64,000 nt of DNA from Alkalilimnicola ehrlichii (GCF_003399765.1 NZ_NFZV01000001.1:345704-409703), one strand, 5' to 3'; shown: positions 11,973 to 60,591, counted from the stretch's first letter. Made by a program: numbers and translations. Notes: generated by a model from the letters alone, not told the origin.

Positions 11973-13174
11973 ATGCTGGACGCTTATATATACGATGGAT
12001 TGCGGACCCCTTTCGGCCGTCATGCCGGTAGCCTCGCTTCGGTACGGCCGGACGATTTGCTCGCGCATGTGATTCGTGCTTTGGTCGAACGCAATTCGTT
12101 CGCGCCGGAGCAATACGAAGACGTTATTGCCGGCTGTACCAATCAAGCCGGTGAGGATGCTCGTAACGTTGCGCGCCATGCTGGCCTGCTGTCCGGCCTG
12201 CCGCTCGAAGTGGGCGGGCAGACGGTGAACCGTTTATGCGGTAGCGGCCTGGCAGCCATTATCGACGCGGCGCGTTCGGTGACTGCGCGCGAAGGCGAGC
12301 TATTCGTCGCCGGCGGTGTCGAAAGCATGAGTCGGGCACCGTTCGTGATGGCGAAGAGCGAAACGGCGTATAGCCGCAACTTCCGCATGTTCGACTCTAC
12401 CATCGGGGCGCGCTTCCCTAACCCGAAAGTCGAGGCCGAGTTCGGCGACGACACGATGCCGCAGACGGCGGACAACGTAGCGCGCGATTTGGGCATCAGC
12501 CGGGAAGAGGCCGATACCTTTGCCGCCGGCTCCCAGGCACGTTTCGAAGCGGCGCGCGAAGCCGGATTCTTCGACGATGAGATTCTGCCTATCGAAGTGC
12601 CGCAAGGTCGTAAGAAGCTGCCGCTCGCCGTCGACCGCGACGAGCATCCGCGACCTGGTACCGGTGTCGAGCAGCTAGCTAAGCTGCGCACCTTGTTCGA
12701 CGGCGGTGTCGTCACTGCGGGCAATGCTTCCGGAGTCAACGACGCGCCGGCGCCTTGTTGATCGGTACCCGTAATGCCGGCGAGCGGGCCGGTGTCGTCC
12801 CGCGCGGCCGGATCGTTGCGGCCGCGATTGCCGGCGTGCCGCCGCGGGTCATGGGCTTGGGGCCGGTACCGGCGTCGCAGAAAGCATTGGCTCGGGCCGA
12901 CCTGAGCCTGGATCAGATGGACATCATCGAGATCAACGAAGCATTCGCCTCGCAGGTGCTCGGCTGCGCCAAGCAACTGGGAATCGCCTTCGACGATCCG
13001 CGTTTGAACCCCAACGGCGGTGCGATCGCCGTAGGCCACCCGCTGGGTGCCTCGGGTGCGCGTATTGCCTTGACCGCGCTGCGCGAACTGGAGCGCCGAG
13101 GTGGTCAATACGCGTTGGTTTCGATGTGCATTGGCGTAGGCCAAGGCATTGCCGCCGTTATCGAACGGCTCTGA
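11973..13174 (+). CDS. 3-ketoacyl-CoA thiolase (PcaF/PaaJ-like), apparent 1-nt frameshift near 12745
   Basis: N-terminal YIYDGLRTPFGR and C-terminal thiolase motifs split across ORFs 11973-12761 and 12755-13174; inserting one G at ...aacgac|gcgcc restores VNDGAGALLIG. Confidence 0.8.
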
Positions 13175-13200
13175 ATAAACCCCTTCCCGGAGGATGATCG

Positions 13201-14370
13201 ATGAAAGCCTTTGCATGGGATGACGCGTTGCGCCTTGAGGGGCAGCTCACTGAAGAAGAGCGCATGATTCGCGATACCGCACGCGATTACTGTCAGGACA
13301 ACCTGATGACGCGGGTTTTGGAAGCTAACCGCCATGAGATCTTCCACCGTGAGATCATGAGCGAAATGGGCGAGCTGGGCCTGCTCGGGCCGACGATTCC
13401 CGAGCAATACGGCGGTGCTGGCGTAAACCATGTCTGTTACGGCCTGGTTGCGCGCGAAGTCGAGCGGGTCGACTCCGGCTATCGTTCGGCGATGAGCGTA
13501 CAGTCGTCATTGGTCATGTTTCCGATCTATACGTTCGGCAACGAAGCCGTGCGCAATAAGTACCTGCCTAAACTGGCCAGCGGCGAATGGGTAGGTTGCT
13601 TTGGGTTGACCGAGCCGAATCATGGCTCCGACCCCGGTAGCATGGTGACGCGGGCCGAGAAGGTCGACGGCGGTTATCGCCTGACCGGCGCCAAAACCTG
13701 GATTACCAACTCGCCGATCGCCGATGTGCTGGTGGTGTGGGCCAAGCTCGACGGCAAGATCAACGGGTTCGTTCTGGAGCGTGGCATGGAAGGCCTGAAA
13801 ACGCCGAAAATCGAGGGTAAGTTCTCCCTGCGGGCGTCGATTACCGGCGAAATCGTCATGGACGAGGTGTTTGTTCCTGCCGAGAACCGGTTGGACGTGG
13901 AAGGCCTGAAAGGCCCGTTTAGCTGCCTCAATAAAGCCCGCTACGGCATTTCCTGGGGGGCGCTGGGTGCTGCAGAATTTTGTTGGCACGCGGCTCGGCA
14001 GTATACTCTCGACCGGCAGCAGTTTGGCCGGCCGTTAGCCGCCAACCAGCTGATTCAGAAAAAGCTCGCCGACATGCAAACGGAAATTGCCCTAGGCTTA
14101 CAGGGTTGCCTGCGCCTGGGGCGGTTGATGGACGAGGGGGATTGGGCGCCGGAAATGGTGTCCCTGCTCAAACGCAATAACTGCGGCAAAGCCCTCGACA
14201 TCGCCCGTGTTTCGCGTGACATGCACGGCGGTAACGGGATTGCTGACGAGTACCACGTCATCCGACACGTAATGAACCTGGAAGCGGTGAATACCTACGA
14301 GGGTACGCATGACGTGCACGCGCTTATTCTTGGGCGGGCACAAACGGGTATTCCGGCGTTCTCCGCTTGA
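13201..14370 (+). CDS. gcdH: glutaryl-CoA dehydrogenase
   Basis: 389 aa; [22 protein letters not shown] is the GcdH-type N-terminus; ACAD fold. Confidence 0.8.
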
Positions 14371-14396
14371 GAAGACAGGTTAGGAGGTTTTATTAA

Positions 14397-16055: not shown

Positions 16056-16083
16056 TTCGGCGCTTAGCAACCCCTGTGGCAAA

Positions 16084-16121: not shown

Positions 16122-16198
16122 TCCAGGCGGCATCCTGCTAGATAAACGATGGTATCGATGCGAGTACCGGAGTTTACCGTTTTTGCGGAATAACCGCC

Positions 16199-16690
16199 TT
16201 AGGGGATTTTTACGATCGGCCCATTGCGCATAAAGCTGCTCATACCAACGGCGATGGGGTCTTCCCGGTCGCCGTCATGGGCGGTGCAGCGGACGAAAAC
16301 AATGCGCTTAGTGACCCGGTAGGCCTCCGCACAGGCATAGATGGCGGCGCCTGCTTTAGCGGGGCGCAAGTAATCGAGCCGTAGATCGAGTGTGGCCACC
16401 ATGCTAGGCGGGTAAACGGCTAAGCTTGCCGCAGCGCCGCTGGTTTGATCGACCAGGGCGGTGATCGCACCGCTGTGTAAGGCGCCGGTTTCAAGGTTGC
16501 CGATCAAGGCCTCTTGATACGGCATCCGCGCGGTGAGTTCACGCCCACGGTAGCCTATCGGCTTGAGCTTAATATAGCGGCCATGCGGGATGGAGCGGAA
16601 AAAGACCCTGGCAACCCACAGGCGTAATAAATTGCTGCGACGAAGACGCTTTTGCCACCCTGGAATGGGCGGCGGCTGGGAACTCCTCAT
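16199..16690 (-). CDS. hotdog-fold thioesterase (YigI/DUF4442-like)
   Basis: 163 aa; LETGALHSGAITALVDQTSGAAA core. Confidence 0.55.
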   Translation of the reverse strand: MRSSQPPPIPGWQKRLRRSNLLRLWVARVFFRSIPHGRYIKLKPIGYRGRELTARMPYQEALIGNLETGALHSGAITALVDQTSGAAASLAVYPPSMVATLDLRLDYLRPAKAGAAIYACAEAYRVTKRIVFVRCTAHDGDREDPIAVGMSSFMRNGPIVKIP

Positions 16691-17483
16691 TGCTGTGCGC
16701 TCGTTGTTGTTATGAGATAAACGTCGAACCGTACACTGCGTCCCTCAAGGCTATAGTCGGGGCGCGAACCGCTGATGGCAGGTGCTTTCAGCGGTCGTTT
16801 TACCACGACTCGTTGTTTGGCTGCATGCTGCGCTGCGGCTAAAAGTTCGCTAGGGTCGGCGTCTGCGCCGAGCAAGCGGCGCAAGAGCTGCATTTCTTTC
16901 TTTACCTGGGCTCGCGTTCCGCCTTCCGGATACATGGGGTCGAGATATACGACATCGGGCCCGCGTGCGGAGATTGCTGTCGTAGTAAGGTCGTTGAGTC
17001 CGTACAGCATAGACTCATCCGCGCCGCCACTGCCGCAAGATCAGCAAGTTCCGCCGCGCGTTGCAAGCCGTCGTCTAGTAAAGCGGTAATGACGGGCGAG
17101 CGCTCAACCAAGGTCACGCGCGCGCCTAAGGCTGCGAGTATGAAGGCGTCTTTGCCTAAACCCGCGGTCGCATCCAGTACCTCAAGCGTTCGGTCGCCCT
17201 TCAAACCGCAGGCGCGTGCAATAGCTTCTTTCTTCAGGGAGCCCTGGCGGCGGCGATAGCCGAATTTACCGAAGTCGACATAGACCGCGCCGGGTGCATG
17301 CGGGCCGGTTAGGCGTAACTGGAGGCGCTTAGGCGTTAGCTCCAGGATCAAGGAGCCCGCTGCGGGGGCAGCGTCCGCAGCGGGCGTCAGGCCGTAGGCT
17401 TTGGCTAAGCCGCGGGCTTTCTCTTCCAGCGAGGGGTCCGTCCAGTGCAATGGGCAATTTTCTGAAGAAAAAGAGTTTTTCAT
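16687..17483 (-). CDS. rsmJ: 16S rRNA (guanine1516-N2)-methyltransferase RsmJ, apparent 1-nt frameshift near 17020
   Basis: N-terminal part in ORF 16902-17663 (from MKNSFSSENC) and C-terminal part in ORF 16687-17010 (VVYLDPMYPEG motif); one extra C in cgc(c)gg restores a continuous approximately 266-aa protein. Confidence 0.7.
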
Positions 17484-19551: not shown

Positions 19552-19586
19552 GTAAAATTATTGCCGTAAAATCTCGTAAAGTTATA

Positions 19587-24156: not shown

Positions 24157-24159
24157 GTA

Positions 24160-27747: not shown

Positions 27748-28966
27748 TTACCCTTTCACGCAGACAACTTGCTTAAGTGTGTAGACGATTTCCACCAGAT
27801 CCTTTTGGGCCGCCATCACCGCGTCGATGTCTTTATAGGCGGCCGGCGTTTCGTCCACCACACCGGCATCTTTGCGACACTCCACGCCTTGGGTGGCCTC
27901 GGCATGTTGCTCGACGGATACCCGCTTCTTCGCTTCGGTGCGAGACATGACGCGTCCGGCACCGTGGCTGCACGTGCAGAAGCTTTCTTCGTTACCCAGC
28001 CCCTCACAATGAAAGAGCGCGCGCCCATACTGCCGGGGATAATGCCCAATTCGTCCTTTTTCGCGGAAACCGCGCCCTTACGCGTCAGAAGTACGTCTTT
28101 GCCGTAGTGGTGTTCGCGGGCAACGTAGTTGTGGTGGCAGTTTACCGCTTGCTCGACGCCGAGTACGCGACGCTCCAGCGTTTTTGCCACGGCATCGAGC
28201 GTGCGCTGCATCATGATCTCTCGGTTGATGCGGGCGTAATCTTGGGCCCAAGCGACGGCTTCGACGTAGTCGTTGAAGTGTGCGGTGCCTTCCGACAGGT
28301 ACGCCAGGTCTTTATCGGGCAGATTGACGAACATACGTTCCATGTCCTTCTTCGCCAGCTCGATAAAGTGAGTGCCGATACGGTTGCCGACGCCGCGCGA
28401 GCCGGAATGCAGCATGACCCATACGGACTGGTGTTCGTCCAGGCATAGCTCTATGAAGTGGTTGCCGGTGCCCAGCGTCCCCAGATGATTCGCGTTGTTG
28501 GTTTTCTTCAGTACCCGGTGCTTTTCCGCCAGCACGTCGAAGCGTGCCGAGAGTTGCTCCTTCCAGGCATGGGAGACGACCTCGGGCAGGTCATGCCAAG
28601 CGCCGCGATCTCTTTTGCCACGGGTGCTGGAACGCCCGTGGGGAACTGCGCGCTCAATCGCAGTGCGCAGCGGGGCGAGGTTATCGGGTAGATCGCGAGC
28701 TTTCAGGTCAGTCTTCACCGCCATCATTCCGCAGCCGATATCAACGCCCACCGCTGCCGGAATCACAGCTCCGACGGTGGGGATAACGGAGCCGATAGTA
28801 GCCCCTTTGCCAAGGTGAACATCCGGCATCGCCGCGACCCATTGATGGACAAAGGGCAGCGAGGCGATGTTTTTAGTTGTTGCCGGGCCTTATCTTCAAA
28901 CGGCACCCCGAGCGTCCAGCTCTTGATCGGAACGCCGTTGTCGACGTTGGTCATTTCGTAGTTCAT
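27748..28966 (-). CDS. rtcB: RNA-splicing ligase RtcB, two apparent 1-nt homopolymer frameshifts (~28035 and ~28867)
   Basis: three ORF pieces (28763-28966, 27816-28829, 27748-27948) align end to end with E. coli RtcB (MNYE..., MPDVHLGKG, C-terminal VECRKDAG...VVCVKG); one extra A in an A5 run and one extra G in a G4 run restore a ~407-aa protein. Confidence 0.85.
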
Positions 28967-31064: not shown

Positions 31065-31426
31065 CTGGGAAGCCGCAAGGCCGGGGTTCGACTCCCCGAT
31101 AAAAAGCGCAAACGGAGCATTGCTCCAAAACGGTACGAATGCCTGGGCAAGTTTGCCCAGGCCAGTAGTGCCAACGCCGATGGGCAGCGTGTGAGGCCCT
31201 GACGCTTTCGGTCCGGATGAGTATGCAGGGTGCGGGGGGCACCCTGCACGCGTTCGGTCTCGTCAACGGTCGCTCGGCGGCCCGTGTTAGCCCGTTTGTT
31301 AAAGGGGTAGCGCGGCAACCGACGAGCGGTTGATCGGGACGGCATTCGGCACCCGGAAGGGAATAGCCTCACACCCCCCATTGGCTTTTACTAAGCATTA
31401 AGCTGGATAACAGCAGGAGAGTCGCA

Positions 31427-32652: not shown

Positions 32653-33500
32653 CTAAGCCTCGGGCATCGCCCCCACGTGACGTAAGATGTCTTTCGTAAT
32701 CGAAAGTCGGGCGTCGGCGGAGTCTGCGTGTTCCATATCAAGGTTCAGTGCAAAAAAGTACACCTCGCCGTCGCGCTCGACGTAACCGACAAACCATCCC
32801 AGTCCAGGCGTCGCAGGATCGCCAAACCCCGCCCATCCCGTTTTGCCGCTGAGGCGGTACTCCGGCGTTTCCTCCAGCACGAAGAGGTCTTTTGCGGTCT
32901 TCGTCGTTGCCGGCGATAGGCCTAACTCATCGAAGTAAAAGCGTTGCAAAAAGTCGACCTGGGCATCGGCCGAAACGCGCAGCGCCCCCGTCAACCAAAA
33001 GCGATCGATAGCGCCGCTCATATCGCCATTGCCGTACTTAAAGGCGTCCAAGTAGGTTTGCATGTGTTCCGCACCGATACGGCGGGCCAGCTCTTGGTAA
33101 TACCAAACCACAGAGTTTAAAAACGCGGTTTCAAGCGTATGCTCCTCTAACCACGCGGGTGGCCACCACGCTTGGGGCGGTGCGACGGCGTCATCGCGTT
33201 CCAGCGCAAACGCCGGCCCGTTGGCAACGCCTGTCTCCAACGCGATCAAGGTGTTCGGAATCTTGTAGGTCGATGCGGGTAGAAAGGCCGTTTGCGCCCG
33301 TTGCGGGTTATGGCGGATGACACGCTGGGCCTGCGGGTCCAGCAAAACAAAGGCTCCGTTCCGGCCTTCAAAAAGGGCGCAAGTTCCGCGGCGTCCGAAT
33401 CAGCGGGCGCTGCCGCAACGGCGGGCGAGGGCGGCTCAGACGAGCAGGCCGACAAGGAAAGCGAGAACACTAATAATGGCAATAAATGTCGCAGCTGCAT
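32653..33500 (-). CDS. class D (OXA-type) beta-lactamase, apparent 1-nt homopolymer frameshift near 33355
   Basis: motifs STYK (the S-x-x-K active site), SVV, YGN, KTG and WFVGY; lipoprotein-type signal peptide MQLRHLLPLLVFSLSLSAC in ORF 33246-33500; a T5 to T6 correction restores APFFEGRNGAFVLLDPQAQRV. Confidence 0.8.
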
Positions 33501-33640: not shown

Positions 33641-34167
33641 TTAAGTTGCTTCGCAGGGCTGAGCCGTCATTAGGTCGACATACGCGCCGGCAATCAAATC
33701 CTGCGGCTCGATCGCTAGTTCCGCCATCAAGCGTTGCGCAATCTTCACGCCTTCGGCTTCCGTTTGCGCCGGGGTGAGAACAACCTCCAGTTCGATAAAA
33801 CGGCCAAGCTCGGCCACCTCGTCTAGATGTATTCTCGTTTGTCCGACGAGAAAAACCGTGCGGCACTTTTTGACGACGGCGCGGACGCCGAGCGCTGCCG
33901 CCAGAGCCGCTTTGAGGGAGGCCGGGTCATCGGTCGGCGAGCGAATATAGGTCGAGGTCTTCGGACCCGAGGCGTCGGGGCGGTCGTACTGGATCAACTC
34001 GCCCGTACCGTCGCCAAAGGCCCTAAGCTTCAGTCTCCCCTCGGGTACCTGAAAAAAGTGTCTTCCTGCTCAAGCCGCTGCGGCGGGCCGTCCGCGAGCC
34101 TCGCCGCTATGTGGGTTTGCCCCTCGAAGTCGCTTGAGCGGGCTTTTATCTCGATATTACGTGCCAT
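33641..34167 (-). CDS. CYTH-domain protein (class IV adenylate cyclase / CyaB-like), apparent 1-nt homopolymer frameshift near 34030
   Basis: N-terminus MARNIEIKAR...QEDTFFRYPRG in ORF 34030-34422 and C-terminus RIHLDEVAELGRFIELEVVL in ORF 33641-33997; a G4 to G5 correction restores ...GRLKLRAFGDGTGELIQYDRP. Confidence 0.6.
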
Positions 34168-36144: not shown

Positions 36145-38882
36145 ATGGGGTGCAACAAACTCATCCGCCGGACTGTCGGGTGGTGCGTGCTGTTGGCTGG
36201 GGGGCTGCTGGCGCTGACGCTTCACGCCGCCGAATCCGCGCATCGCTTCGACATACCGCCAGGCGGTCTTGACCAAACGCTGACGCAGTTTGCCTTGCAG
36301 GCAGGGCTTGTTCTGTATCTCGATCCTGCCTTGGCTCAGGGGCAAACCAGCCCGGGCCTGCAAGGCGAGTATCGGCCCCGGCACGGCCTGTCGCTCTTGC
36401 TAAGCGGTACCGGCCTCACCTATCGAGAGGATGCCGACAGCGGCGCCATCGCTATCGTACCTCGCGCCGCTATCGCCGCCAGCGAGCGGCAGTCGCTGCC
36501 GGCGCTACTGATCGAGGCGCGGCCCTGGAGTCCGGGAGACGACGCCTACACCGGTTCGGGCTCGGCCAATGTGCTCACACAGCGGGATATCGAGCTTTTT
36601 CGGGGTAGCTCCGTGGGCGATATCTTCCAGGGCACGCCCGGCGTGCTGGTGGGGGAGAACCGCAACAGCGGCGGCCTGGACCTCAACATCCGCGGCATGC
36701 AGGGGCAGGGGCGGGTGCCGGTGCTGATTGACGGCAGCCGGCAGGAAACGACGGTACACCGCGGCTATGCCGGCGTCGCTTCCCGTAGTTATGTGGACCC
36801 GGATCTGATCGGCGGCATTCGTATCGACAAAGGGCCGAGCATGACGGCCGAAGGCAGCGGCGCGGTCGGTGGGCTGGTCAGCATGCGCACCCTGGAGCCC
36901 AACGACATCATCAAGGACGGCAAGGATTTCGGCGTCCGGCTTCGAGGTACCGCCATCGGCAATAACAGCGGTCGCACTCCTAGCCCCGGCACGCCGGCGG
37001 GTTATAACACAGGCAATCCGTTTGCCGGCGCAGCGGTCTACCGCACGGACTGTATCGTTGCGAGCCTGTGCCAGGGCGAGTACGCACTGCCCGAACGCTT
37101 CGCCCCGGAGGCCGGTATGGATCGCCCCGGCCTGCTGGAGCCGAAAAGCCATGCCGCCAGCGTGGCCGTTGCCGGGCGCTTGGCCTGGGCGGATCTGCTC
37201 GCCGCTTATGCGGAGCGCCGCCAGGGCAATTATTACGCCGGCAGGCACGGTCGCACGCCGTCCATCGACCTCTCCGATGTACGCGAATTGCCCTTCTACA
37301 CCGAGGTGCGGCCGGTACTGCGCGGCGCTTCCCGATTCCGAGGCGGGGAGCGCATCGTTAACAGCAACTACGAGAGCCAGTCGGTTCTACTCAAGGGCCA
37401 GCTCTGGCTGCCGCGCGAGCAAAACCTGGAATTAAGCTACCTGAATTACCGCAGTACCTACGGCGAGTTGATGCCCTCGCAACTCATGTGGTTCGACCAA
37501 GTCCGGCAGACGGCCTCAAGCGAGGTAACGGCAAACACCTACACCGCCCGTTACCGCTGGGATCCGTTCGCCTCCGATTATTTCGACCTACGCGCCAATC
37601 TTTGGCATACCGATACGCGTAGCAGTAACGACCCCTACTTCGTGCCGGGCGCCGATGGCGAGCCGATGGAAATGGGCGGAACCGGCTCCGAACACTATCG
37701 CCGCTGGGGAGCGGACCTTAGCAACAGCATGCGCTTTGAGGGCTTCGGCCGGCTGGAGGCCCGCTACGGCGGTTCCGCGCAATTAGAAAAGCTCCGCCCC
37801 CGCGGCGAGATCGCCGAGGACACCCCGAGCGACAACCGCGACGGCGATCGCCATGAGCTTAGCGCGTTTGCCGCGCTGGAATATCAACCGCTACCTAGCG
37901 TCACCTTAGAAGCCGGTATCCGGCACACCCGCTTCCGCTCCAAAGACAACACGCCCATGGCGATCGACCCGGGCAACGAATACTGCCCCGAGCCCGACGG
38001 CGACGGCGGCTGCCTCCCCTTTACCTACCGAAGCCGCAATCACGGCACCGTGCCTATGGCCGGCCTTACCTGGGAGCCCGTCGCCGGCATTCGGCTCTAT
38101 GCCCGCTACGCCGAGGCGCTCCGCATGCCCAGTTTGTTCGAAACCACCCAAGGATTCTCGGTGGCGCCGACCCCCGGCCTGGACCTAAAACCGGAGCACG
38201 CTTACCACCGCGAAGTGGGCATCAATATGCTGCGCCATGGGTTGCTCGGCGAAAGCGACCGACTTGGGTTACGCATCGCCTACTTCCGCAACCGCGTTAA
38301 AGACTATATCACCCGCACGCCGCGCAACCTGTGGGAGGAGGAAACCGACAACTTCCAGCAAAACATGTTCCGCATCCGCAACATCGAAAGCGCAAGCTTT
38401 CATGGCTACGAAGTGTCGGCGGAGTATGACGCAGGGTGGTTGTTCGGAGAGTTCGGCGGCACCTGGTACAGCAACATCGAAACCTGCCACGAAGGTAGCT
38501 ATCGTCGTCAAAGCTGCACCGATTACGGCGTGCCGCGCAGCTACATCAATAACATGATCCCCCCAACTGGCATAGCAGCGCCACCCTCGGCACACGGCTA
38601 TTCCAGCAGCAGCTGGAGCTTGGCGCTCGCGGCACCTTCATGGGGCAGCGCACCCCGCTTCCTCCCACTGACAGCTCGCAATTCCAGAGCTTTGCCGCGC
38701 CGGTGTCCTGGCACCGCTATCGCGTGTACGACGTGTTCGCCAGCTACCGGCCCAACGACACCGTCAGCGTCGATTTCAACATCGACAACGTCACGGACCG
38801 TTACTACATCGACGCGCTCAGCCTAGGGCTGGTGCCTGCTCCCGGGCGCACGGCCCGGTTGAGCCTGACGCTTCATTACTAA
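36145..38882 (+). CDS. TonB-dependent transducer (receptor with N-terminal STN signalling domain), apparent 1-nt homopolymer frameshift near 38562
   Basis: signal peptide, STN domain (FDIPPGGLDQTLTQFALQAGL), plug and barrel; C-terminal ...LSLTLHY found in ORF 38640-38882; a C6 to C7 correction joins the frames. Confidence 0.8.
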
Positions 38883-44020: not shown

Positions 44021-44165
44021 AGACGGCCGCCACCACCGGCGGTTAGCCCGAGCCTTCGCGTCAAAGGCGGCGGGAGCGGTGTTGCGTCTGTGCGATGACG
44101 AACACCGTCCTCCTGTGCTTGTGCGATGGCCGGTTGTGGAACCACACGCGCAGATGGGATGCAAC

Positions 44166-48129: not shown

Positions 48130-49332
<1,203 letters not shown>

Positions 49333-49388
49333 TTACGAAACGCGTATAATCGGGTTTTCTGGCAAATGACTTTTGCGGCTGGGCAATA

Positions 49389-50273: not shown

Positions 50274-50294
50274 GACAGAGGCTATCAGAGTGCG

Positions 50295-50741: not shown

Positions 50742-50773
50742 GAGGTGATTGGCTCTCTAATCTTGCCGCGAGT

Positions 50774-51235: not shown

Positions 51236-51372
51236 GATTAGCCTTACTCCTGCTTGTCGTTATGAGGATGCCGGCCGCGTTGTCCCCTCGCCTGGGCGCT
51301 GAACAGGCAAATCTATGCGTGACGGCATACCCGCTAGGGGCCAACTCAGCCGAGAAGCATCTATTAGCCGGA

Positions 51373-51706
51373 CATTAGCGTATCCGCTCCCAAAATGTCA
51401 TGTCGACGGATGTTTCGTCCAACAGTTCGATATACTTTAGCGCTACGGCGTTCGAGGTCCACTTTGCGCAAACCGCTTCTGCCCGCGCCTGCGAATCGGC
51501 TAGGGCGAGGTCGCGTAAACGCCATCTGGTCCTTTGAGCAAAACGTGGCCAAGAAGGCCTTCCTCGTGCGCTAGGAACTCGCGGTCTACGTTCTCGGAAG
51601 CTTCGAGTAGCGTTTTCTCGTCGACACCCTCGCGTAGTCTGAAGGTGGCGAATTCGACGCCGCCGAAGCGAAGCGCATCGTCTTTCATTAGAGTGAATCG
51701 AGCCAT
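51373..51706 (-). CDS. small hypothetical protein, apparent frameshift near 51515
   Basis: MARFTLMKDDALRF...LLKGPDG in ORF 51500-51706 continues in another frame as ...RLRDLALADSQARAEAVCAKW...FWERIR, giving a protein of about 110 aa. Confidence 0.3.
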
Positions 51707-51738
51707 TGTCTACTCCCCGTTTGTGTGGAGTAGGAAGA

Positions 51739-52467: not shown

Positions 52468-52616
52468 CGCCTTAGCATAGCGCGCCTCCTGTCGCTCTGT
52501 TATATACCTAAGGCCACGATAAGCCGGGTTTATGCGCACGTCTTGGCCGTTCTCCCCCCGTCTTGTCCGGGGAATGCCATGCGTTGGGGGCGGAAGCGCT
52601 CGGGCGCCGACGGAGG

Positions 52617-53928: not shown

Positions 53929-56423
53929 GGGCGGGGGCATGGCGTTTGGGTTTGCGCTTCCTGCGCCGCGATTGGCGCGCCGGCGAGTTGCGATTGCTAG
54001 CGGCGGCTTTGGTGATTTCGGTCGCCGCGGTGAGTTCGGTTGCGTGGTTAGCCGAGCGGGTGAGCGCTGCCGGTACCGGGCGAGCGGCGGAATTGCTGGC
54101 CGCCGACGGTGTGGCGCGTAGCTCCGACCCTATCCCCGCAGCGTGGCGCGAGGAGGCCGCCGCGCGCGGGCTTTTACATGCGGTGACGCTGGAGTTTCCA
54201 AGTGTGGTGCTGGCCGGCGAGCGGAGTCAGCTGGTATCGGTGAAGGCCGTGGAAGCGCCCTACCCCTTGCGCGGGATGTTACGGGTACAAGCCGGTCGCG
54301 ATGCACCGGAAGAGGAGGTGCGGGCGGTGCCGGAGCCGGGTACGGTCTGGTTGGAGCCGCGCTTGATGTTGCAGCTCGACCTGGTGGTGGGCGATGCGCT
54401 GGAGCTGGGCGCGGAGACGTTCACGGTAAGCCGTATGCTGACGCTGGAGCCGGATCAAGGCGGCTTTTTCGGCAGCCTTGCGCCGCGTTTAATGTTGAAC
54501 ATCGAGGATATACCGGCCACCGGCTTGGTACAGCCGGCAAGCCGGGTGCGTTACAACCTGATGGTGGCGGGGGATGCTCAAGCAGTTGAGCGTTATCGAG
54601 GGTGGCTGGAAGCCGCGACCGAAGAGCCGCTGGACTGGGCGCGGCCGGGCGATCAGCCGGGGGTGGAGCAAGTGCTGAGCAACGCTCAGCGTTTCTTAGG
54701 CCTCGGTGCTTTGCTTACCGTGGTCATTGCCGGTGTGGCGATTTTGCTCACGGTTCGGCGTTACGCGGCAAGCCAATTGGATCGGGTAGCCATTATGCGC
54801 TGCTTGGGCGCAAGGCAGCGCCAAGTGAGCGCTATTTTGACCTGGAAGCTGGTGTGGCTGGGGCTGGCCGCCGGTTTTGTTGGCTTAGGCGCCGGCTTTG
54901 CTTTGCAGCATCTAATGTTGCTACTGGTGGCCGATTTGCTGCCGCCGGAGTTGCCCGCGCCGGGGCTGCGCCCGGCCTTGAGCGGGTGGTTGGTAGCGTT
55001 GGCGGCTTTGCTCGGATTCGCTTTGCCGACGGTATTGCGCTTGCGGCAAGTGCCGCCGATGCGGGTATTGCGGCGCGATATCGGCGGCGATGTGTTCCGT
55101 GGTAGCGGCCTGTATGTCATTCCGCTGGCGATCATTTTCCTCATGATGTGGTGGCAAGCGGGCGATCCGCGCCTGGCTGTGGTGGTGTTTGGCGCTGTGC
55201 TCGGCACGCTGTTCGTGCTCGGGTTGGCCGGGCTCGGTCTGGTTGTGGCCGTGCGCCTGTTGCGGCGTGTCAGCGGTGCCGGTTTGCTGTGGTTTTCCGG
55301 CATTGGCCGGCGGCCGGTGGCGGCTGTAGTGCAGGTGGTCGGCGTCGGCTTAGGGCTGATGGCCTTGTTTTTGCTGGGTTTGGTGCGCGGCGATTTGCTG
55401 GATACCTGGCAGGGGCGAATTGCCGAGGATGCGCCTAATTACTTCTTGATCAATGTGCAGCCGACGGAAGTGGACGCCTTGCGCACCTTTTTGGCTGAGC
55501 GGGGCGAGGTGGTGCCGACCTTTTATCCCATGGTTCGTGGGCGATTGACGGCGATTAACGAGCAACGTGTGCAGCCGGACGATTTCGAAGATCCCTCCAC
55601 CCAACGTTTGCTGGCGCGCGAGTTCAATTTATCGTGGGCGGAAGATCTGTACCCGGATAATCGCATTCGTTCCGGCCGCTGGTGGACGGGAGCCGAGCCC
55701 GATCCGGAGCAGTTTTCGGTCGAGGTGGGCTTGGCCGAGCAGTTAGGTGTCGGTTTAGGCGATACGCTGACCTTTTCGGTGGCGGGCGAGTCGGTGGAGG
55801 CGACGGTAACCAGCTTGCGAGAAGTGCATTGGGATAGCTTCAATGTGAATTTCTTTGTCACCGCACCGAGCGGTTTGCTGGACGACTTTCCGGCGACGTA
55901 TATCAGTAGCTTTTATCTGCCGCCGGAGCATGAGGATATTATGCCGGCACTGGTGCGCAACTTTCCTAGCGCCACGGTGATCGATATCAACAGCATTCTC
56001 GCCACCGTGCGCGATATCATCGAGCAGGGCAGCCGTATCGTGGAGTTGATGGCGGGGCTGACGTTGCTAGCCGGGCTGCTAGTGTTGTTGGCGGCCTTGC
56101 AGATCACCGGCGAAGAGCGTCGCTTCGAAAGCGCGCTGCTACGCTCGTTGGGGGCGAGTCGCGCGCGTATTCGTTGGTTGGCGCGCAGCGAGTTCTGGTT
56201 GCTTGGCGCGGCGGCAGGTTTCCTGGCGGCGGTGATTGCGGTTTTTGCCGGTCGGATCGCCGCGCGGGAGTTGTTTCAGCTTTACTATCCGGTGAATCTG
56301 GAGCTTATCGCGCTCGGCACGCTTATCGGCGTTTTGGTGGTATGGAGTGCCGGAGCCTGGGGTTCCGTGCAAGCCTATCGCGTCTCGCCGATGCGTTTGT
56401 TGCGTGAAACCCGAGATGTTTGA
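53925..56423 (+). CDS. ybbP: ABC transporter permease YbbP-like (FtsX-family, duplicated)
   Basis: about 830 aa; two FtsX-like TM bundles; ATGA overlap with ybbA. Confidence 0.8.
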   Translation: MRAGAWRLGLRFLRRDWRAGELRLLAAALVISVAAVSSVAWLAERVSAAGTGRAAELLAADGVARSSDPIPAAWREEAAARGLLHAVTLEFPSVVLAGERSQLVSVKAVEAPYPLRGMLRVQAGRDAPEEEVRAVPEPGTVWLEPRLMLQLDLVVGDALELGAETFTVSRMLTLEPDQGGFFGSLAPRLMLNIEDIPATGLVQPASRVRYNLMVAGDAQAVERYRGWLEAATEEPLDWARPGDQPGVEQVLSNAQRFLGLGALLTVVIAGVAILLTVRRYAASQLDRVAIMRCLGARQRQVSAILTWKLVWLGLAAGFVGLGAGFALQHLMLLLVADLLPPELPAPGLRPALSGWLVALAALLGFALPTVLRLRQVPPMRVLRRDIGGDVFRGSGLYVIPLAIIFLMMWWQAGDPRLAVVVFGAVLGTLFVLGLAGLGLVVAVRLLRRVSGAGLLWFSGIGRRPVAAVVQVVGVGLGLMALFLLGLVRGDLLDTWQGRIAEDAPNYFLINVQPTEVDALRTFLAERGEVVPTFYPMVRGRLTAINEQRVQPDDFEDPSTQRLLAREFNLSWAEDLYPDNRIRSGRWWTGAEPDPEQFSVEVGLAEQLGVGLGDTLTFSVAGESVEATVTSLREVHWDSFNVNFFVTAPSGLLDDFPATYISSFYLPPEHEDIMPALVRNFPSATVIDINSILATVRDIIEQGSRIVELMAGLTLLAGLLVLLAALQITGEERRFESALLRSLGASRARIRWLARSEFWLLGAAAGFLAAVIAVFAGRIAARELFQLYYPVNLELIALGTLIGVLVVWSAGAWGSVQAYRVSPMRLLRETRDV

Positions 56424-56438
56424 GTTGTCGAGGAGATA

Positions 56439-56879
56439 TTGATGGATTCCACCCAAGGTTGTTTTCTGGAAGATCTTAGCGAAGGCATGGAAGCGACGTT
56501 TACCAAAACGGTGACGGAGACGGACGTGACCCTGTTTGCCGGCATTACCGGCGATTTGAACCCGATGCACGTTAACGAAGAGTATGCGGCCGCGACGCCT
56601 TTCAAGGGGCGGATCGCGCACGGTATGTTAACGGCGAGTCTGATCTCCAATCTGCTGGGGACGAAGCTGCCGGGGCCGGGCACTATTTATATGAGCCAGC
56701 AGGTGCGGTTTAAGGCGCCGGTGCGGATTAACGATACCGTCACAGCGCGGGTGAGGGTGACGAATATCCGTGAGGATAAGGCCATTGTGACCTTGGCAAC
56801 GGATTGTCTGGTGGGCGGCAAGGCGGTATTGACCGGCGAAGCGGTGGTGATGGTGCCGCGACGCGAGGCAGTGTCCTAA
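56439..56879 (+). CDS. MaoC-like (R)-specific enoyl-CoA hydratase (PhaJ-like)
   Basis: 146 aa; hotdog fold; DLNPMHVNEEYAAATPFKGRIAHG hydratase motif. Confidence 0.75.
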   Translation: MMDSTQGCFLEDLSEGMEATFTKTVTETDVTLFAGITGDLNPMHVNEEYAAATPFKGRIAHGMLTASLISNLLGTKLPGPGTIYMSQQVRFKAPVRINDTVTARVRVTNIREDKAIVTLATDCLVGGKAVLTGEAVVMVPRREAVS

Positions 56880-56880
56880 G

Positions 56881-57693
56881 GTGGATCGGTTGCTGACGGC
56901 AGAGGCGGCGCTTGCCGACTGGTATGGCGAGTTCGAATTGCCGGAAGGCGCTGTGGCCGAATGGCGGATTGGTCCGGCGCGGTTTCAGGTGGTGCATCGG
57001 TTTGGCGAATGGCGGGTGTCTCAGCAGCGAGACGAAGGTTTGCCGTTGCACGCCGAAGTCGCTTTCGACGATGTCGAGCCGATGCCGGAAGACAAGGTAG
57101 AGCGGTTCGTGTATGCCGATCAAAGCGGCGTTTTCCACGTGCAACCGCTGTTGCCGGACCGCTCCGTCGTATCGCGTCCGGCAGCGCCGCTGTTCGTACC
57201 GGCTGGCGAGGCGGTGCGGTTGTACGTAACCGTACCGCTGTGGTTGCAATTGTCGGTCGGTAAGCAGCGGAAACGTTTGTTGGAGGTGCCGAGCTATCGG
57301 CCCTCCGATACCTGGTTCGGCCCGACAACCATGACCGGCGAACTCTGCTACGCGCTGCGTAGCCGGTGTCGGTTGTATCTTGAGGATGCCGAGTTCGTAC
57401 CTTATCGGGCGCATATCCCCGTGCAGATCCGCAACCAGGCGAGTAAACAATTGAGTTTGGAAAGAGTCTGCGTGCCGGTGCGGCAGTTGAGCTTATATGT
57501 CACGCGCGACGGCCGGTTCTGGACCGACGAGGTCGGTCTTGAGCAGCGAGACGAAGGCGGCAGTCTAGCGGCCTTGCGGCTGGGGGGAAAGGCGCCGAAA
57601 GAAGCGGTCGATGCGCAGCGCATCGCTACCTCGCGCGATGCGCCGGGTCGACGTACGGCTATACATGCGTTCAGCGCTTTGTTTAATCTATGA
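56881..57693 (+). CDS. conserved hypothetical protein
   Basis: 270 aa; long ORF coupled to the preceding gene; no motif recognised. Confidence 0.4.
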   Translation: MDRLLTAEAALADWYGEFELPEGAVAEWRIGPARFQVVHRFGEWRVSQQRDEGLPLHAEVAFDDVEPMPEDKVERFVYADQSGVFHVQPLLPDRSVVSRPAAPLFVPAGEAVRLYVTVPLWLQLSVGKQRKRLLEVPSYRPSDTWFGPTTMTGELCYALRSRCRLYLEDAEFVPYRAHIPVQIRNQASKQLSLERVCVPVRQLSLYVTRDGRFWTDEVGLEQRDEGGSLAALRLGGKAPKEAVDAQRIATSRDAPGRRTAIHAFSALFNL

Positions 57694-57760
57694 ATCTTCG
57701 TTATCGATAGCTTATCCGCCAACGAGCGTATGTTCTGTCTGAGGCTAAACGAGGTGTTTC

Positions 57761-58624
57761 GTGGCTGACTTTTGGGCGCCGATGGGGGCGTTTTTCTCGG
57801 CGGGCGGTTGGTTGAACGTCTTGCAAGCGGCGCTGATCCTCGTGCTGGGGCTACTGCTTGGGCGGATACTTGGCAGTGCGGTCGCGCGCGTGCTGCACGG
57901 CAAGCTCGACGCGCACGGGGTTATGATTGCCCGGCGGGTCGTCTTTTATTTCATTTTGGGTTTAGCCGTTGCTTCGGCGTTGCATCAGCTCGGTTTCCGC
58001 TTAGGGGTTTTGTTGGGAGCTGCCGGCGTCGTCTCGGTTGCGCTCGGCTTTGCCTCGCAGACCTCCGTATCCAACCTGATCAGCGGCTTGTTCTTAGTCG
58101 GCGAGCGTCCGTTCGGCGTTGGCGATGTGGTACGTATCGGCTCTACGACGGGCGAGGTTTTATCCATCGATTTGCTGTCGGTGAAACTGCGTACCTTCGA
58201 TAACCTCTATGTCCGCATTCCGAACGAGACGCTGATTAAAAGCGAGATGACGAATATGTCTCGCTTTCCCATCCGTCGCGCCGATCTGCAAATCGGCGTG
58301 GCGTATAAAGAGAGCATCAAACGGGTGCGCGAGGTGTTGCTTGAGGTCGCGGAGCGCAATCCGGTATGCCTGGAAGAGCCGAAACCTGTGTTCATGGTTT
58401 TGGGCTTCGGCGATTCGTCGATTAATCTGCAATTTTCGGTATGGGCCAAGCGCGAGAACTTTCTCGAGCTTCGTAACAGTATGCAGGAGCAGATCAAAGA
58501 AGCGTTCGACGAGCACGGGATCGAGATTCCTTTCCCCCACCTTAGTCTTTATGCCGGTAGCGTAACCGACCCTATCCCTGTGCGCTATGTCGACCCCGAC
58601 CCGACAACGAGCGATAAGCTTTAA
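57761..58624 (+). CDS. small-conductance mechanosensitive channel (MscS family)
   Basis: three TM helices followed by the MscS beta-domain (GDVVRIGSTTGEVLSIDLLSVKLRTFDN). Confidence 0.8.
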   Translation: MADFWAPMGAFFSAGGWLNVLQAALILVLGLLLGRILGSAVARVLHGKLDAHGVMIARRVVFYFILGLAVASALHQLGFRLGVLLGAAGVVSVALGFASQTSVSNLISGLFLVGERPFGVGDVVRIGSTTGEVLSIDLLSVKLRTFDNLYVRIPNETLIKSEMTNMSRFPIRRADLQIGVAYKESIKRVREVLLEVAERNPVCLEEPKPVFMVLGFGDSSINLQFSVWAKRENFLELRNSMQEQIKEAFDEHGIEIPFPHLSLYAGSVTDPIPVRYVDPDPTTSDKL

Positions 58625-58842
58625 TCAGGTTTATCGCTGATATAGATCAAGCGCTCACCCGTACTCCCGACATACAGTGAAGGTGTGGAAGGTGTGCCGG
58701 CAGGCGGCGATTTGCCGTGGTCATGCCAACGTTCTCTGTCGCACTTTAGTGTCGATACGCCTGCCGAGCCCTTGCCAGATCGTGCTGGCGTCCATAAGAA
58801 CAGGATGCGCAAGGCAGCTCGTCAACGCCAGGAGGTGGCGAA

Positions 58843-60591
58843 ATGCTCCATAAGCTGATGGCACCCCGCGATACCGGAGAAGGCGTTCACGCGCTGGACC
58901 GTATTAATCATATGATCATGGGCCGTTTAACGCGGGGTATCTCGCCGGCTGGTCTGTCGCTGGCATACTACGACTGGCTGGTGCATTTGGCCATGTATCC
59001 GGGAAAGCAAATCGATTTGATGCAGGATGCGACGGAAAAATATCTTCGCCTGATAAGCTATGCAGGTAACTGCGCCTCCGAAAATAGCATCGAACCTTGT
59101 ATCACGCCCGAGCCGGGCGATAACCGGTTTCGCGCGCCGGAATGGCAGCAGTGGCCGTTTAATCTGATCCAGCAGAATTTTCTGCTGGTGCAAGATTGGT
59201 GGAGTAGGGCGACCAGCGAGGTCCGCGGTATCGAGCCGCATCATCAGGATGTGGTCCATTTTGTCGGGCGGCAACTCCTCGATGTGCTGTCGCCGTCGAA
59301 CTACCTGCCGACTAATCCGGAAGTGTTGCGTCGTACTTTCGAAGAAAACGGCGAGAATCTCTTGCGTGGCTGGCGCAATTTCATCGACGACGTTTATCGT
59401 CGTGTCCATGGCCAGCCGCCCGCCGGGGTAGAAGATTGGCAGGTCGGCGAGAACATGGCATTGACGCCCGGCAAAGTCATCTACCGCAATCGCTTGATCG
59501 AGCTGATCCAGTACGAGCCGACCACCAAAAATGTGTACGCCGAGCCGGTTCTTTTCGTGCCGGCGTGGATTATGAAGTACTACATTTTGGATCTGGTGCC
59601 CGGTAAATCCTTAGTGGAGTATCTGAGGGATCAGGGGCACACGGTATTCATGATTTCCTGGAAAACCCTGGGCCGACAGACCGCGACATGGGCATGGTCG
59701 ATTACCGTAAGCTCGGTATTCTGGCCGCCTTGGATGTTATAAATGCGGTGGTGCCGAATCAGAAGGTGCATGCGGTAGGTTATTGTCTCGGCGGAACCTT
59801 GTTATCGCTTACCGCCGCGGCGATGGCTCGCGATGGCGACGAGCGTTTGGCAAGTATGAGTTTATTTGCGGCTCAGGTGGATTTTACCGAGCCTGGAGAG
59901 TTGGATCTTTTCATCGACGAAAGCCAGATTACCTATCTCGAAGATAATATGTGGCAAAAGGGCTATCTGGACGCCTATCAGATGGCCGGCGCGTTTCAGC
60001 TGTTGCGCAGTAACGACCTCATCTGGTCGGCCGTGGTTAAGGATTATTTAATGGGCGAGCGGACGCCCATTTTGATCTCATGGCCTGGAATGCCGATGCT
60101 ACCCGCCTGCCCTACCGAATGCACAGCGAATACCTCCGCAGTTTATTCCTTAATAATGATTTCGTCGAAGGGCGTTACGATGTCGAAGGGCAGCCCATTC
60201 ATTTCGGCGATATTCGAGCGCCGATTTTGCAGTTGGCACCGTTAAGGACCATGTGGCACCCTGGCTGTCTGTCTACAAGATAAACCGCCTGGCGCGAACC
60301 GAAACGACGTTTTTACTGACCACGGGTGGGCATAACGCAGGGATCGTTACGCCGCCGGGCCATCCGCGGCGTAAGTATCAGGTACATACTCGCGACGTGC
60401 ATGATCGCTACCTCGGGCCGCGTCGGTTCCACCTGGAAACGCCCTATCAGGACGGTTCCTGGTGGCCGGAGTGGGAGGCGTGGCTGGCGAAGCGTTCCGG
60501 CAACCGGGTTAAACCACCGGCGATGGGAGCGCCCAAAGCGGGTTATAAACCCCTTCTGGATGCGCCGGGCGAGTATGTACTTATGAAATGA
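58843..60591 (+). CDS. phaC: second PHA synthase (PhaC), three apparent 1-nt homopolymer frameshifts (~59675, ~60078, ~60240)
   Basis: four ORF pieces are colinear with PhaC (lipase box GYCLGG); correcting A4 to A5, T4 to T5 and A2 to A3 runs restores about 584 aa. Confidence 0.8.

What the first reader, a model, noticed from the sequence alone, without database searches (positions are those of the whole stretch)
11973..60591. Pervasive single-base deletions in homopolymers: apparent pseudogenes are most likely sequencing artefacts
In every case checked, the reading frame is restored by adding one base to a short homopolymer or dinucleotide run. The cases are: thiolase (~12745, G), rsmJ (~17020, C), rtcB (two sites: A5 to A6 near 28867 and G4 to G5 near 28035), the OXA beta-lactamase (T5 to T6 near 33355), CYTH (G4 to G5 near 34030), the TonB receptor (C6 to C7 near 38562), phaC2 (three sites: A4 to A5, T4 to T5, A2 to A3), and probably the small gene at ~51515. 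That is at least 11 deletion-type errors in 64 kb, all in the same direction, spread across essential and accessory genes alike. This is the signature of uncorrected homopolymer undercalling (nanopore, Ion Torrent or 454 style). It is not gene decay. ORF-based annotation of this contig will systematically split genes.
Basis: seen in the sequence. Interest (0 to 1): 0.6.

Follow-up and report, generated by a model that had tools for sequence, protein, structure and literature searches.

The report
Single-base deletion errors splitting genes
Eleven one-base deletions split eight genes in this window; a second public assembly of the same bacterium shows at least six are sequencing or assembly errors, and the other five probably are too, so this is a data-quality problem rather than biology.

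Summary
Eight genes are split by 11 frameshifts: thiolase, rsmJ, rtcB (two), class D beta-lactamase, CYTH, a TonB haem receptor, a 110-aa gene and a second phaC (three). All 11 are in the -1 direction, and adding one base at each site restores a full-length, family-typical protein.

The decisive evidence is a second NCBI assembly of the same organism (GCA_003399715.1, labelled Alkalilimnicola ehrlichii). Over 62.2 kb it differs from the window by 0 substitutions and 20 single-base indels.
- The sister carries 11 different indels of its own, which break purK, rdgC, rtcR, Slam and other genes that are intact here.
- These differences are therefore consensus errors. Of 17 that reading frame can resolve, 16 are deletions.

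Five frameshifts are shared by both assemblies: thiolase, rsmJ, TonB and two in phaC2. They are too many for independent random coincidence. The repaired proteins show no relaxed constraint, and the three shared sites in runs of 4 or more all abut GATC or CCWGG. Systematic error is the likelier cause, but genuine mutations are not excluded.

None of the affected genes is essential.

The parts
11973..13174 (+). 3-oxoadipyl-CoA thiolase gene, split into 262-aa and 139-aa ORFs
   Evidence: Thiolase_N and Thiolase_C lie on separate ORFs. The repaired 400-aa protein scores 700 bits to NF006001 over 1-399/401 and aligns without gaps to PDB 8gqi_A.
12744..12745 (+). Frameshift 1: one G missing from GAC-GGC-GCC (NDGA motif), GG->G. 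Shared with the sister assembly.
   Evidence: Junction interval; NDGA motif pinned; no difference from the sister at this site.
16687..17483 (-). rsmJ (SAM_MT) gene, split
   Evidence: Pfam profile 15-145 and 138-229 on two ORFs. The repaired protein covers 15-229/230 at 251 bits in one stretch.
16957..16962 (-). Frameshift 2: GGGCCC, where one run should be 4 long. Shared with the sister assembly.
   Evidence: The HMM scan of all insertion positions peaks at 16953-16980 with 326-327 bits, against 299 bits at 17020. Identical in the sister. The frameshifted ORF is annotated as WP_181919214.1.
27748..28966 (-). rtcB gene, read in three frames
   Evidence: tblastn of Marinobacter RtcB gives three HSPs in frames -1, -3 and -2. 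The repaired 406-aa protein covers Pfam RtcB 1-426/426 and is identical to RFA39336.1 of the sister assembly.
28000..28003 (-). Frameshift 3 (rtcB, 3' site): G4 on the coding strand; the sister has 5. Window-specific error.
   Evidence: the sister calls an intact 406-aa RtcB.
28870..28874 (-). Frameshift 4 (rtcB, 5' site): A5 on the coding strand; the sister has 6. Window-specific error.
32653..33500 (-). Class D (OXA-type) beta-lactamase gene, split
   Evidence: The repaired 282-aa protein scores 228 bits to the class D main model over 4-235/236.
33370..33374 (-). Frameshift 5 (OXA): T5 on the coding strand; the sister has 6. Window-specific error.
   Evidence: The T6 version scores 6-14 bits better than an alternative repair. 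The sister breaks the same gene elsewhere, at 33157.
33641..34165 (-). CYTH-domain gene, split
   Evidence: The repaired protein covers CYTH 2-179/179 at 62.5 bits, against 35 bits for the fragment.
34052..34057 (-). Frameshift 6 (CYTH): T6 on the coding strand; the sister has 7. Window-specific error.
36145..38882 (+). TonB-dependent haem/haemoglobin receptor gene; the last 107 codons are in another frame
   Evidence: The repaired 912-aa protein scores 352 bits to TIGR01785 and matches to the last profile position.
38559..38564 (+). Frameshift 7 (TonB receptor): C6, expected C7. Shared with the sister assembly.
   Evidence: The downstream frame opens only at 38553 and HasR homology starts at PNWHS, which pins the shift to about 38553-38566. 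Identical in the sister. Abuts GATC.
51376..51706 (-). Small 110-aa gene of unknown function, split into a 68-aa ORF plus a tail
   Evidence: The repaired protein is identical to WP_220359281.1 of the sister; the 68-aa fragment is WP_220347722.1 on the 478,257-nt contig.
51512..51513 (-). Frameshift 8 (small gene): one base missing (GCC-GAC read as GC-GAC), a run of 2 reduced to 1. Window-specific error.
58843..60591 (+). Second PHA synthase gene ('phaC2', class I type), read in four frames
   Evidence: tblastn of the 77%-identical orthologue gives four HSPs in frames 1, 3, 2, 1 that tile residues 1-584. The repaired 583-aa protein covers 583-585-aa homologues at 100%.
59662..59665 (+). Frameshift 9 (phaC2): A4, expected A5 (invariant SWKNP motif). 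Shared with the sister assembly.
   Evidence: (HMM scan peak 59661-59666). Abuts CCTGG.
60070..60073 (+). Frameshift 10 (phaC2): T4, expected T5. Shared with the sister assembly.
   Evidence: (peak 60067-60073). Abuts GATC.
60225..60228 (+). Frameshift 11 (phaC2): T4; the sister has T5, which gives the conserved PIFAVGTVKDH. Window-specific error.
   Evidence: (peak 60223-60228).
16180..16184 (.). T5 in the window, T6 in the sister; downstream of, or in the tail of, the 4HBT thioesterase gene.
   Evidence: Which assembly is right was not resolved.
16207..16211 (-). T5 in the window, T6 in the sister, inside the last codons of the 4HBT thioesterase gene (163 aa against 172 aa).
   Evidence: Not resolved.
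31234..31239 (.). G6 in the window, G7 in the sister, in the non-coding stretch between the tRNA-like gene and the SPFH gene.
   Evidence: Not resolved.

Best explanation
The split genes come from single-base deletion errors in the consensus of an error-prone assembly, roughly one error per 4-6 kb. The organism's genes are intact.

Two classes of error are present:
- **Stochastic undercalls of run length.** They are more frequent the longer the run, at roughly half of 7-mers, about 13% of 6-mers and 1-3% of 5-mers per assembly. They fall at different places in two assemblies of the same DNA. Six of the 11 frameshifts belong here, and this is shown.
- **Reproducible errors present in both assemblies.** Five of the 11 belong here. 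Their cause is inferred, not shown. The most likely cause is context-dependent (systematic) miscalling, possibly near methylated motifs in native-DNA single-molecule sequencing, or data shared between the two assemblies.

The sequencing platform could not be established.
For: 1. **Sister assembly.** The window matches NFZW01000001.1 (GCA_003399715.1) over 62,219 nt with 0 mismatches and 20 one-base gaps.
2. **Sites where the window is shorter.** At rtcB (two sites), OXA, CYTH, the small gene and the third phaC2 site, the sister's extra base restores the ORF. The repaired RtcB and small protein equal the sister's annotated proteins exactly.
3. **Sites where the sister is shorter.** There are 10 of these. 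At nine the sister breaks a gene that is intact here: hyp535, thiolase-N, h78, rdgC, rtcR, SPFH, OXA, Slam and frmA. The tenth, 33851, falls in CYTH, which is also split in the window, at 34052-57. One sister insertion breaks its purK. Resolved errors are 16 deletions to 1 insertion.
4. **Direction and lesion type.** All 11 window frameshifts are -1, and no nonsense codon, IS element or truncation occurs in these genes.
5. **No relaxed constraint.** Repaired PhaC2 matches 190 of 190 columns that are at least 95% conserved in 120 homologues, where the homologues themselves miss a median of 2. RsmJ matches 39 of 39. PhaC2 identity to its orthologue is 76, 81, 82 and 74% in the four frame segments.
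6. **Motif context.** The three shared sites in runs of 4 or more all abut GATC or CCWGG, against 0 of 13 assembly-specific sites. Background is 2.2% and 3.6% of runs. Fisher p is about 0.002 by my own calculation, and the test is post hoc.
7. **Literature.**
   - An uncorrected R9.4 assembly of a 59%-GC Pseudomonas had 23% pseudogenes. Of these, 89% were frameshift-only, mostly false deletions after 4-5-mers, with some deletions of non-repeated bases (PMC12007338).
   - Systematic errors survive into the consensus at any depth, and methylation motifs and then homopolymers dominate ONT consensus errors (PMC6591954).
   - Homopolymer indels cause fragmented gene calls (PMC9262707).
Against: - Five frameshifts are identical in both assemblies.
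- Under independent errors whose rate depends only on run length, I expect about 0.1 coincidences at runs of 5 or fewer, and four are seen (my estimate). These need a systematic cause that I could not demonstrate.
- No reads and no third dataset are available, and the repaired versions of these four genes are not in the 15-billion-protein collection.
- Three hits in phaC2 is mildly over-dispersed: some gene receiving 3 or more hits has p about 0.08.
- A genuine gene relic (3HCDH) lies directly upstream of the thiolase, so some real decay exists in this region.
- The overall error rate of about 0.025% is far lower than raw ONT consensus of that era, so the platform and polishing history are unknown.
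- Whether this organism methylates GATC or CCWGG is unknown.
Confidence: 0.85

Rival explanations
1. Mixed picture. The six window-specific frameshifts are errors, but some or all of the five frameshifts shared by both assemblies are genuine recent -1 mutations. The strain would then really carry inactivated thiolase, rsmJ, haem receptor and/or second phaC genes.
For: - The five sites are identical in two assemblies that otherwise make different errors.
- That many coincidences is far more than independent random error predicts (estimate).
- All four genes are dispensable.
- A truncated 3HCDH relic sits just upstream of the thiolase in both assemblies.
- phaC2 is a second copy alongside an intact phaC at 17761-19551.
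Against: - All five are -1, like the proven errors.
- No other lesion type is present.
- Repaired PhaC2 and RsmJ keep every highly conserved residue. That is hard to reconcile with a phaC2 that drifted long enough to take two independent indels.
- Four real frameshifted genes among 57 would be several-fold above usual rates.
- The association with GATC/CCWGG has no mutational rationale, but it does have a known technical one (PMC6591954).
- The two assemblies may not be independent.
Confidence: 0.15
2. All differences are real. The two records would be two isolates or subpopulations of a strain with very high homopolymer slippage (for example mismatch-repair deficiency or phase variation), and the frameshifts would be true polymorphisms.
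For: Indels concentrate in mononucleotide runs, as replication slippage does. The TonB haem receptor belongs to a class that is phase-variable through poly-G tracts in Neisseria (from general knowledge).
Against: - There are 0 substitutions against 20 indels in 62 kb. Mutators produce many transitions.
- The bias is 16 deletions to 1 insertion.
- The hits include purK, rdgC, rtcR and frmA in one or the other record.
- Several errors fall in runs of 1-3 bases, where slippage is rare.
- Tracts of 4-7 are short for contingency loci, and the TonB tract lies 88% of the way into the gene.
Confidence: 0.02
3. Programmed ribosomal frameshifting or transcriptional slippage restores the proteins in vivo.
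For: Runs of A or T occur at several sites.
Against: - Homologues of every gene are single ORFs.
- Eleven events in unrelated genes share no slippery-site or stimulator architecture.
- The sister assembly simply has the extra base at six sites.
- The runs are much shorter than the A9 or longer tracts used for transcriptional slippage.
Confidence: 0.005

Closest known systems
Gene-fragmenting homopolymer deletion errors in long-read-only (nanopore, PacBio CLR) or flow-based (Ion Torrent, 454) assemblies
   Same: - Single-base indels, overwhelmingly deletions, mostly at runs of 4-7
- Pseudogenes that are frameshift-only
- Breaks at different places in replicate assemblies
- About 14% of genes affected, against 23% in an uncorrected R9.4 Pseudomonas assembly (PMC12007338)
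- Removed by merging or polishing
   Different: The platform is unknown. The error rate of about 1 per 4-6 kb is lower than unpolished early nanopore consensus. A third of the errors recur in both assemblies, and three lie in runs of 1-2 bases.
Methylation-motif systematic basecalling errors in nanopore consensus (Dcm CCWGG, Dam GATC)
   Same: The errors recur in independent consensus sequences. The three shared run-of-4-or-more sites all abut GATC or CCWGG.
   Different: The literature mostly describes errors inside the motif, often substitutions (PMC6591954). Here they are length errors in the adjacent run. Methylation in this organism is untested, the sample is tiny and the test is post hoc.
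Genuine pseudogene accumulation in decaying or host-restricted genomes
   Same: Many apparently broken genes per kilobase, including genes hit more than once.
   Different: Genuine decay shows a mix of nonsense mutations, insertions, larger deletions and IS elements, together with loss of conserved residues. It is also reproducible between assemblies. None of this is seen here, apart from the separate 3HCDH relic.
Phase-variable contingency loci (for example poly-G tracts in Neisseria hmbR/hpuAB haem receptors)
   Same: A mononucleotide tract in a haem-receptor gene whose length decides the reading frame.
   Different: The tract is only 6-7 long and lies near the 3' end. It has the same length in both assemblies, and it is one of many such events in unrelated genes.

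Membership tests
Assembly consensus indel error (homopolymer undercall) | Not reproducible between independent assemblies of the same DNA | tested here: met
   Six of 11 window frameshifts are absent from the sister assembly, and 11 sister-specific indels are absent from the window, with 0 substitutions in 62.2 kb. Not met for the five shared sites.
Assembly consensus indel error (homopolymer undercall) | Single-base events, with deletions far outnumbering insertions | tested here: met
   All 11 window frameshifts are -1. Of the window/sister differences that reading frame resolves, 16 are deletions and 1 is an insertion.
Assembly consensus indel error (homopolymer undercall) | Concentrated in mononucleotide runs, with the rate rising with run length | tested here: met
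   Eight of 11 lie in runs of 4 or more, which hold about 4.3% of bases. The per-assembly error fraction is roughly 50% for 7-mers, 13% for 6-mers and 1-3% for 5-mers (estimate). Exceptions are the thiolase and small-gene sites (run of 2 reduced to 1).
Assembly consensus indel error (homopolymer undercall) | Adding the base back gives a full-length, conserved protein with no other lesion | tested here: met
Assembly consensus indel error (homopolymer undercall) | Raw reads, or accurate reads, disagree with the consensus at the site | not testable with these tools
   No read data are available.
Genuine pseudogenes (gene decay) | The lesion is present in independent sequence determinations of the strain | tested here: inconclusive
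   Five sites are shared and six are not. Whether the two assemblies are independent is unknown.
Genuine pseudogenes (gene decay) | Mixed lesion spectrum (nonsense, insertions, larger deletions, IS elements) | tested here: not met
   Only -1 single-base events occur in the eight genes. The only other lesion seen is the separate 3HCDH truncation.
Genuine pseudogenes (gene decay) | Relaxed constraint: loss of conserved residues, especially downstream of the first lesion | tested here: not met
   PhaC2 has 0 of 190 and RsmJ 0 of 39 deviations at conserved columns. Identity to the orthologue is even across the frame segments.
Phase-variable contingency locus | A long tract (usually 8 or more) in the 5' coding region or promoter, with length varying between isolates | tested here: not met
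   Tracts are 4-7 long. The TonB tract lies 88% of the way into the gene and is identical in both assemblies.
Programmed frameshift or transcriptional slippage | The frameshift is conserved in homologues and has a slippery site | tested here: not met
   Homologues are single ORFs. The sister assembly has the in-frame sequence at six sites.

The most novel reading that the evidence does not exclude
The five frameshifts found in both assemblies (thiolase 12744, rsmJ 16957-62, haem receptor 38559-64, phaC2 59662-65 and 60070-73) are genuine. This free-living gammaproteobacterium would then have very recently lost four dispensable genes, exclusively through -1 slippage next to GATC/CCWGG and GC-palindromic motifs. 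That would hint at a motif-linked indel hotspot rather than a technical error.
Probability: 0.12. Interest if true: 0.3.

Novelty: not a real feature. Interest (0 to 1): 0.08.

Why it matters
The consequences are practical.

- ORF-based annotation of this contig and of its sister record splits or truncates about one gene in seven. Both records already carry such fragments as RefSeq proteins, for example WP_181919214.1, WP_258868879.1 and WP_220347722.1.
- Any inference of pseudogenisation, gene content, resistance genotype (the OXA gene) or metabolic capacity from these assemblies would be wrong.
- The two assemblies can be merged to remove about two thirds of the errors.
- The remaining shared sites are a short, explicit list to check by Sanger sequencing or short reads.

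Tried and rejected
1. **Search for a close relative with the SPFH protein.** The exact look-up found nothing. Scans of genome contigs and metagenome contigs gave at most 69% identity. The sister assembly was missed because its copy of that gene is itself frameshifted.
2. **ETF-QO homologue search.** The best hit was 84%. The source proteins were hidden because their cluster representative is a 43-aa fragment.
3. **Chimeric four-protein query.** It returned only two irrelevant hits and wasted a search.
4. **Locus of the Aquisalimonadaceae relative.** It shows no synteny with the window.
5. **My first junction placements were wrong.** I had put rsmJ at 17008-17022 and the third phaC2 site at 60235-60240. 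HMM scanning of all insertion positions and the sister sequence corrected both.
6. **The tRNA-like gene with a 6-nt anticodon loop.** I considered it a possible deletion error in an RNA gene. I rejected this because Marinobacter and Hahella homologues have the same odd loop, and the sister is identical there.
7. **Clustering of hits.** Three hits in phaC2 and two in rtcB is only mildly unusual under a uniform model (p about 0.04-0.08).
8. **Literature searches for the accession or strain.** They found nothing, so the platform remains unknown.
9. **Look-ups to fill the sister's gap at window 48829-50609 and to fetch the window's own contig.** Both failed.
10. **Exact look-up of repaired thiolase, RsmJ, TonB receptor and PhaC2 in the protein collection.** None is present, so there is no third witness.

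Full report
**What is in the window**

The window is a gammaproteobacterial chromosome segment with about 59% GC and about 57 genes. A codon-usage Viterbi segmentation and Pfam scans show eight genes whose domains are divided between adjacent ORFs in different frames:
- thiolase (11973-13174, +)
- rsmJ (16687-17483, -)
- rtcB (27748-28966, -, three frames)
- a class D beta-lactamase (32653-33500, -)
- a CYTH protein (33641-34165, -)
- a TonB-dependent haem receptor (36145-38882, +)
- a 110-aa gene (51376-51706, -)
- a second PHA synthase (58843-60591, +, four frames)

All 11 frame changes go from frame f to f-1, the signature of one missing base. About 45 other genes have complete domain coverage.

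**Repair test**

Inserting one base per site yields single ORFs. These match full-length family models in one stretch:
- 3-oxoadipyl-CoA thiolase: 700 bits, above its 622-bit cut-off, positions 1-399 of 401
- RtcB: 1-426 of 426, at 445 bits against 306 bits for the fragment
- RsmJ/SAM_MT: 15-229 of 230
- CYTH: 2-179 of 179
- TonB-hemin family: matched to the last residue
- class I PHA synthase: 7-531 of 532
- class D beta-lactamase: 4-235 of 236

Further checks agree.
- The thiolase aligns without gaps to PDB 8gqi_A through the NDGA motif, which fixes the lesion as GG->G at 12744/5.
- Marinobacter RtcB, 83% identical, tiles the window in frames -1, -3 and -2.
- The nearest PhaC orthologue, 77% identical and from GCA_964460035.1, tiles it in frames 1, 3, 2 and 1.

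**Locating the sites**

For rsmJ and phaC2 I built HMMs from homologues. I then scored every possible insertion position.
- The three phaC2 peaks fall on A4 (59662-65), T4 (60070-73) and T4 (60225-28).
- rsmJ peaks at 16953-16980, which contains GGGCCC at 16957-62.
- The TonB shift is confined to 38553-38566, which contains C6. The bounds are a stop codon in the downstream frame and the start of HasR homology.

**The decisive comparison**

An exhaustive protein search with the frameshifted rsmJ ORF returned a 182-aa protein that is that same ORF, out-of-frame tail included. It is WP_181919214.1 of 'Alkalilimnicola ehrlichii'.

Exact look-ups show that two NCBI assemblies carry this region:
- one has a 478,257-nt contig (RFA31xxx proteins, locus tag CAI21_) and matches the window's ORF products
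- the other is GCA_003399715.1, contig NFZW01000001.1 (476,559 nt, RFA39xxx proteins, locus tag CAL65_)

I fetched the second assembly across window positions 1-48828 and 50610-64000. The alignment has 0 mismatches and 20 single-base gaps.

*Evidence that the sister is right at the six.*
- The sister calls an intact 406-aa RtcB and an intact 110-aa small protein.
- My repaired versions of these two proteins are identical to the sister's annotated ones.
- Adding the sister's extra bases to the window restores rtcB, OXA and CYTH.

*Sites where the sister is wrong.*
- The sister is one base shorter at 6136, 12324, 21235, 23458, 30821, 31628, 33157, 33851, 43439 and 48559.
- It has one extra C at 22307.
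- All but one of these 11 break a gene that is intact in the window and in relatives, including purK, rdgC, rtcR, Slam, frmA and the SPFH gene. The exception, 33851, lies in CYTH, which the window also splits, at 34052-57.

Twenty indels with zero substitutions, each assembly breaking different conserved genes, and a 16:1 deletion bias can only be consensus error.

**The five shared frameshifts**

Thiolase, rsmJ, TonB and phaC2 sites 1 and 2 are identical in both assemblies.

From the counts I estimate per-assembly error fractions of about 0.5 for 7-mers, 0.13 for 6-mers, 0.01-0.03 for 5-mers and below 0.005 for shorter runs.
- A coincidence at the C7 tract is therefore expected.
- Four coincidences at runs of 5 or fewer are not, since about 0.1 would be expected.

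These four are therefore systematic errors, a product of non-independent assemblies, or real mutations.

Four observations argue against real mutations:
- all five are -1, like the proven errors
- no other lesion type is present
- repaired PhaC2 keeps 190 of 190 columns that are at least 95% conserved, where real homologues miss a median of 2, and RsmJ keeps 39 of 39
- phaC2 identity to its orthologue is flat across the four frame segments

One post hoc observation favours systematic error. The three shared sites in runs of 4 or more all abut GATC or CCWGG. None of the 13 assembly-specific sites in such runs does, and the background is 2-4% of runs. The other two shared sites lie in the palindromes GGGCCC and GGCGCC. 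Methylation-motif and homopolymer errors are the two dominant reproducible error classes in nanopore consensus (PMC6591954).

Three points keep real mutation open:
- no reads and no third dataset are available
- the 3HCDH ORF just upstream of the thiolase is a genuine 5'-truncated relic in both assemblies
- three hits in phaC2 is mildly over-dispersed

I put the probability that at least one shared site is genuine at about 0.15.

**Comparison with published cases**

The pattern matches published descriptions of uncorrected long-read assemblies.
- A 59%-GC Pseudomonas R9.4 assembly had 23.3% pseudogenes, and 89% of them were frameshift-only. The indels were mostly false deletions, most often after 4-5-mers, with occasional loss of a non-repeated base. 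Errors made up less than 0.05% of bases (PMC12007338).
- Homopolymer indels are known to fragment gene calls (PMC9262707).

Here 8 of 57 genes (14%) are hit, at about 0.02% of bases.

**Verdict**

The artefact interpretation is supported, directly for six sites and by inference for five. There is no biological feature here, so the interest is low. What can be used is the explicit list of five sites that still need accurate reads.

Noticed in passing
window 30993-31065 (+) and 31427-32575 (+); loci L001-L010, L020, L035, L040 about 350-800 nt upstream of the match: A tRNA-like gene with a 6-nt 'anticodon loop' (ARAGORN 'tRNA-???'; Rfam tRNA 45.5 bits) sits about 360 nt upstream of an SPFH/Band-7 protein gene, divergent from rtcR-rtcB-rtcA. 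The same pairing of one to three tRNA or tRNA-like genes with the SPFH homologue recurs in Marinobacter, Hahella, Kangiella, Thiodiazotropha and Alcanivorax loci. rtcR lies beside it in at least the Marinobacter and Hahella loci. Several of these copies have irregular loops. It looks like a conserved RNA-repair-associated module, reminiscent of Y-RNA/tRNA-like elements in rsr-rtc operons. The sister assembly differs in the structured spacer (G6 against G7 at 31234-39).
   Followed up: partly
window about 24200-52600: This block of about 28 kb is absent between rdgC and tesA in the nearest syntenic relative (L075, GCA_964460035.1). It looks like an insertion or island. It carries:
- a polysaccharide deacetylase and a TPR protein
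- the rtc operon
- OXA and CYTH
- ECF sigma/FecR, the TonB haem receptor, a PKD protein, the HphA haemophore and Slam
- the B12 riboswitch with nrdDG
- frmAB
- a LysR regulator, a GNAT protein and a WYL regulator

GC rises to 64-65% at 36-44 kb.
   Followed up: partly
window 11415-11956 (+): This is a relic of a 3-hydroxyacyl-CoA dehydrogenase gene. Only profile positions 137-175 of the NAD-binding domain and a weak C-terminal domain (36 bits) remain, and there is no room upstream for the missing 136 positions. It is present in both assemblies, so it is probably a genuine truncated pseudogene. It may also carry a -1 shift near 11490.
   Followed up: partly
window 38559-64, 59662-65, 60070-73; also 16957-62 and 12735-12752: The indel errors that recur in both assemblies abut GATC, CCTGG and GATC respectively. 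The other two lie in GGGCCC and GGCGCC palindromes. None of the 20 assembly-specific indel sites abuts GATC or CCWGG. This may be a footprint of DNA methylation on the sequencing chemistry. The pattern is post hoc and the sample is small.
   Followed up: partly
whole window; P0129, P0001-P0004: Both source records are labelled Alkalilimnicola ehrlichii. However, PhaC is only 66% identical to that of strain MLHE-1, and the best ETF-QO hit outside the two assemblies is 84%. The species or genus label looks doubtful. The nearest relative found is an unnamed MAG (GCA_964460035.1) at about 65-84% amino-acid identity.
   Followed up: no
window 43820-44035 (+): A full-length cobalamin riboswitch (76 bits) lies directly upstream of the anaerobic ribonucleotide reductase genes nrdD-nrdG. 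This is a known type of arrangement.
   Followed up: no
window 16180-16211: Two T5/T6 differences lie 27 nt apart between the two assemblies, at the 3' end of the 4HBT thioesterase gene. They give tails of ...IVKIP* (window) or ...IVKNPLRRLFRKKR* (sister). Which is correct was not resolved.
   Followed up: partly
window 17761-19551 and 58843-60591: There are two PHA synthase genes in one window, both of the class I type by NCBIfam and Pfam. The two copies are about 40% identical to each other.
   Followed up: no
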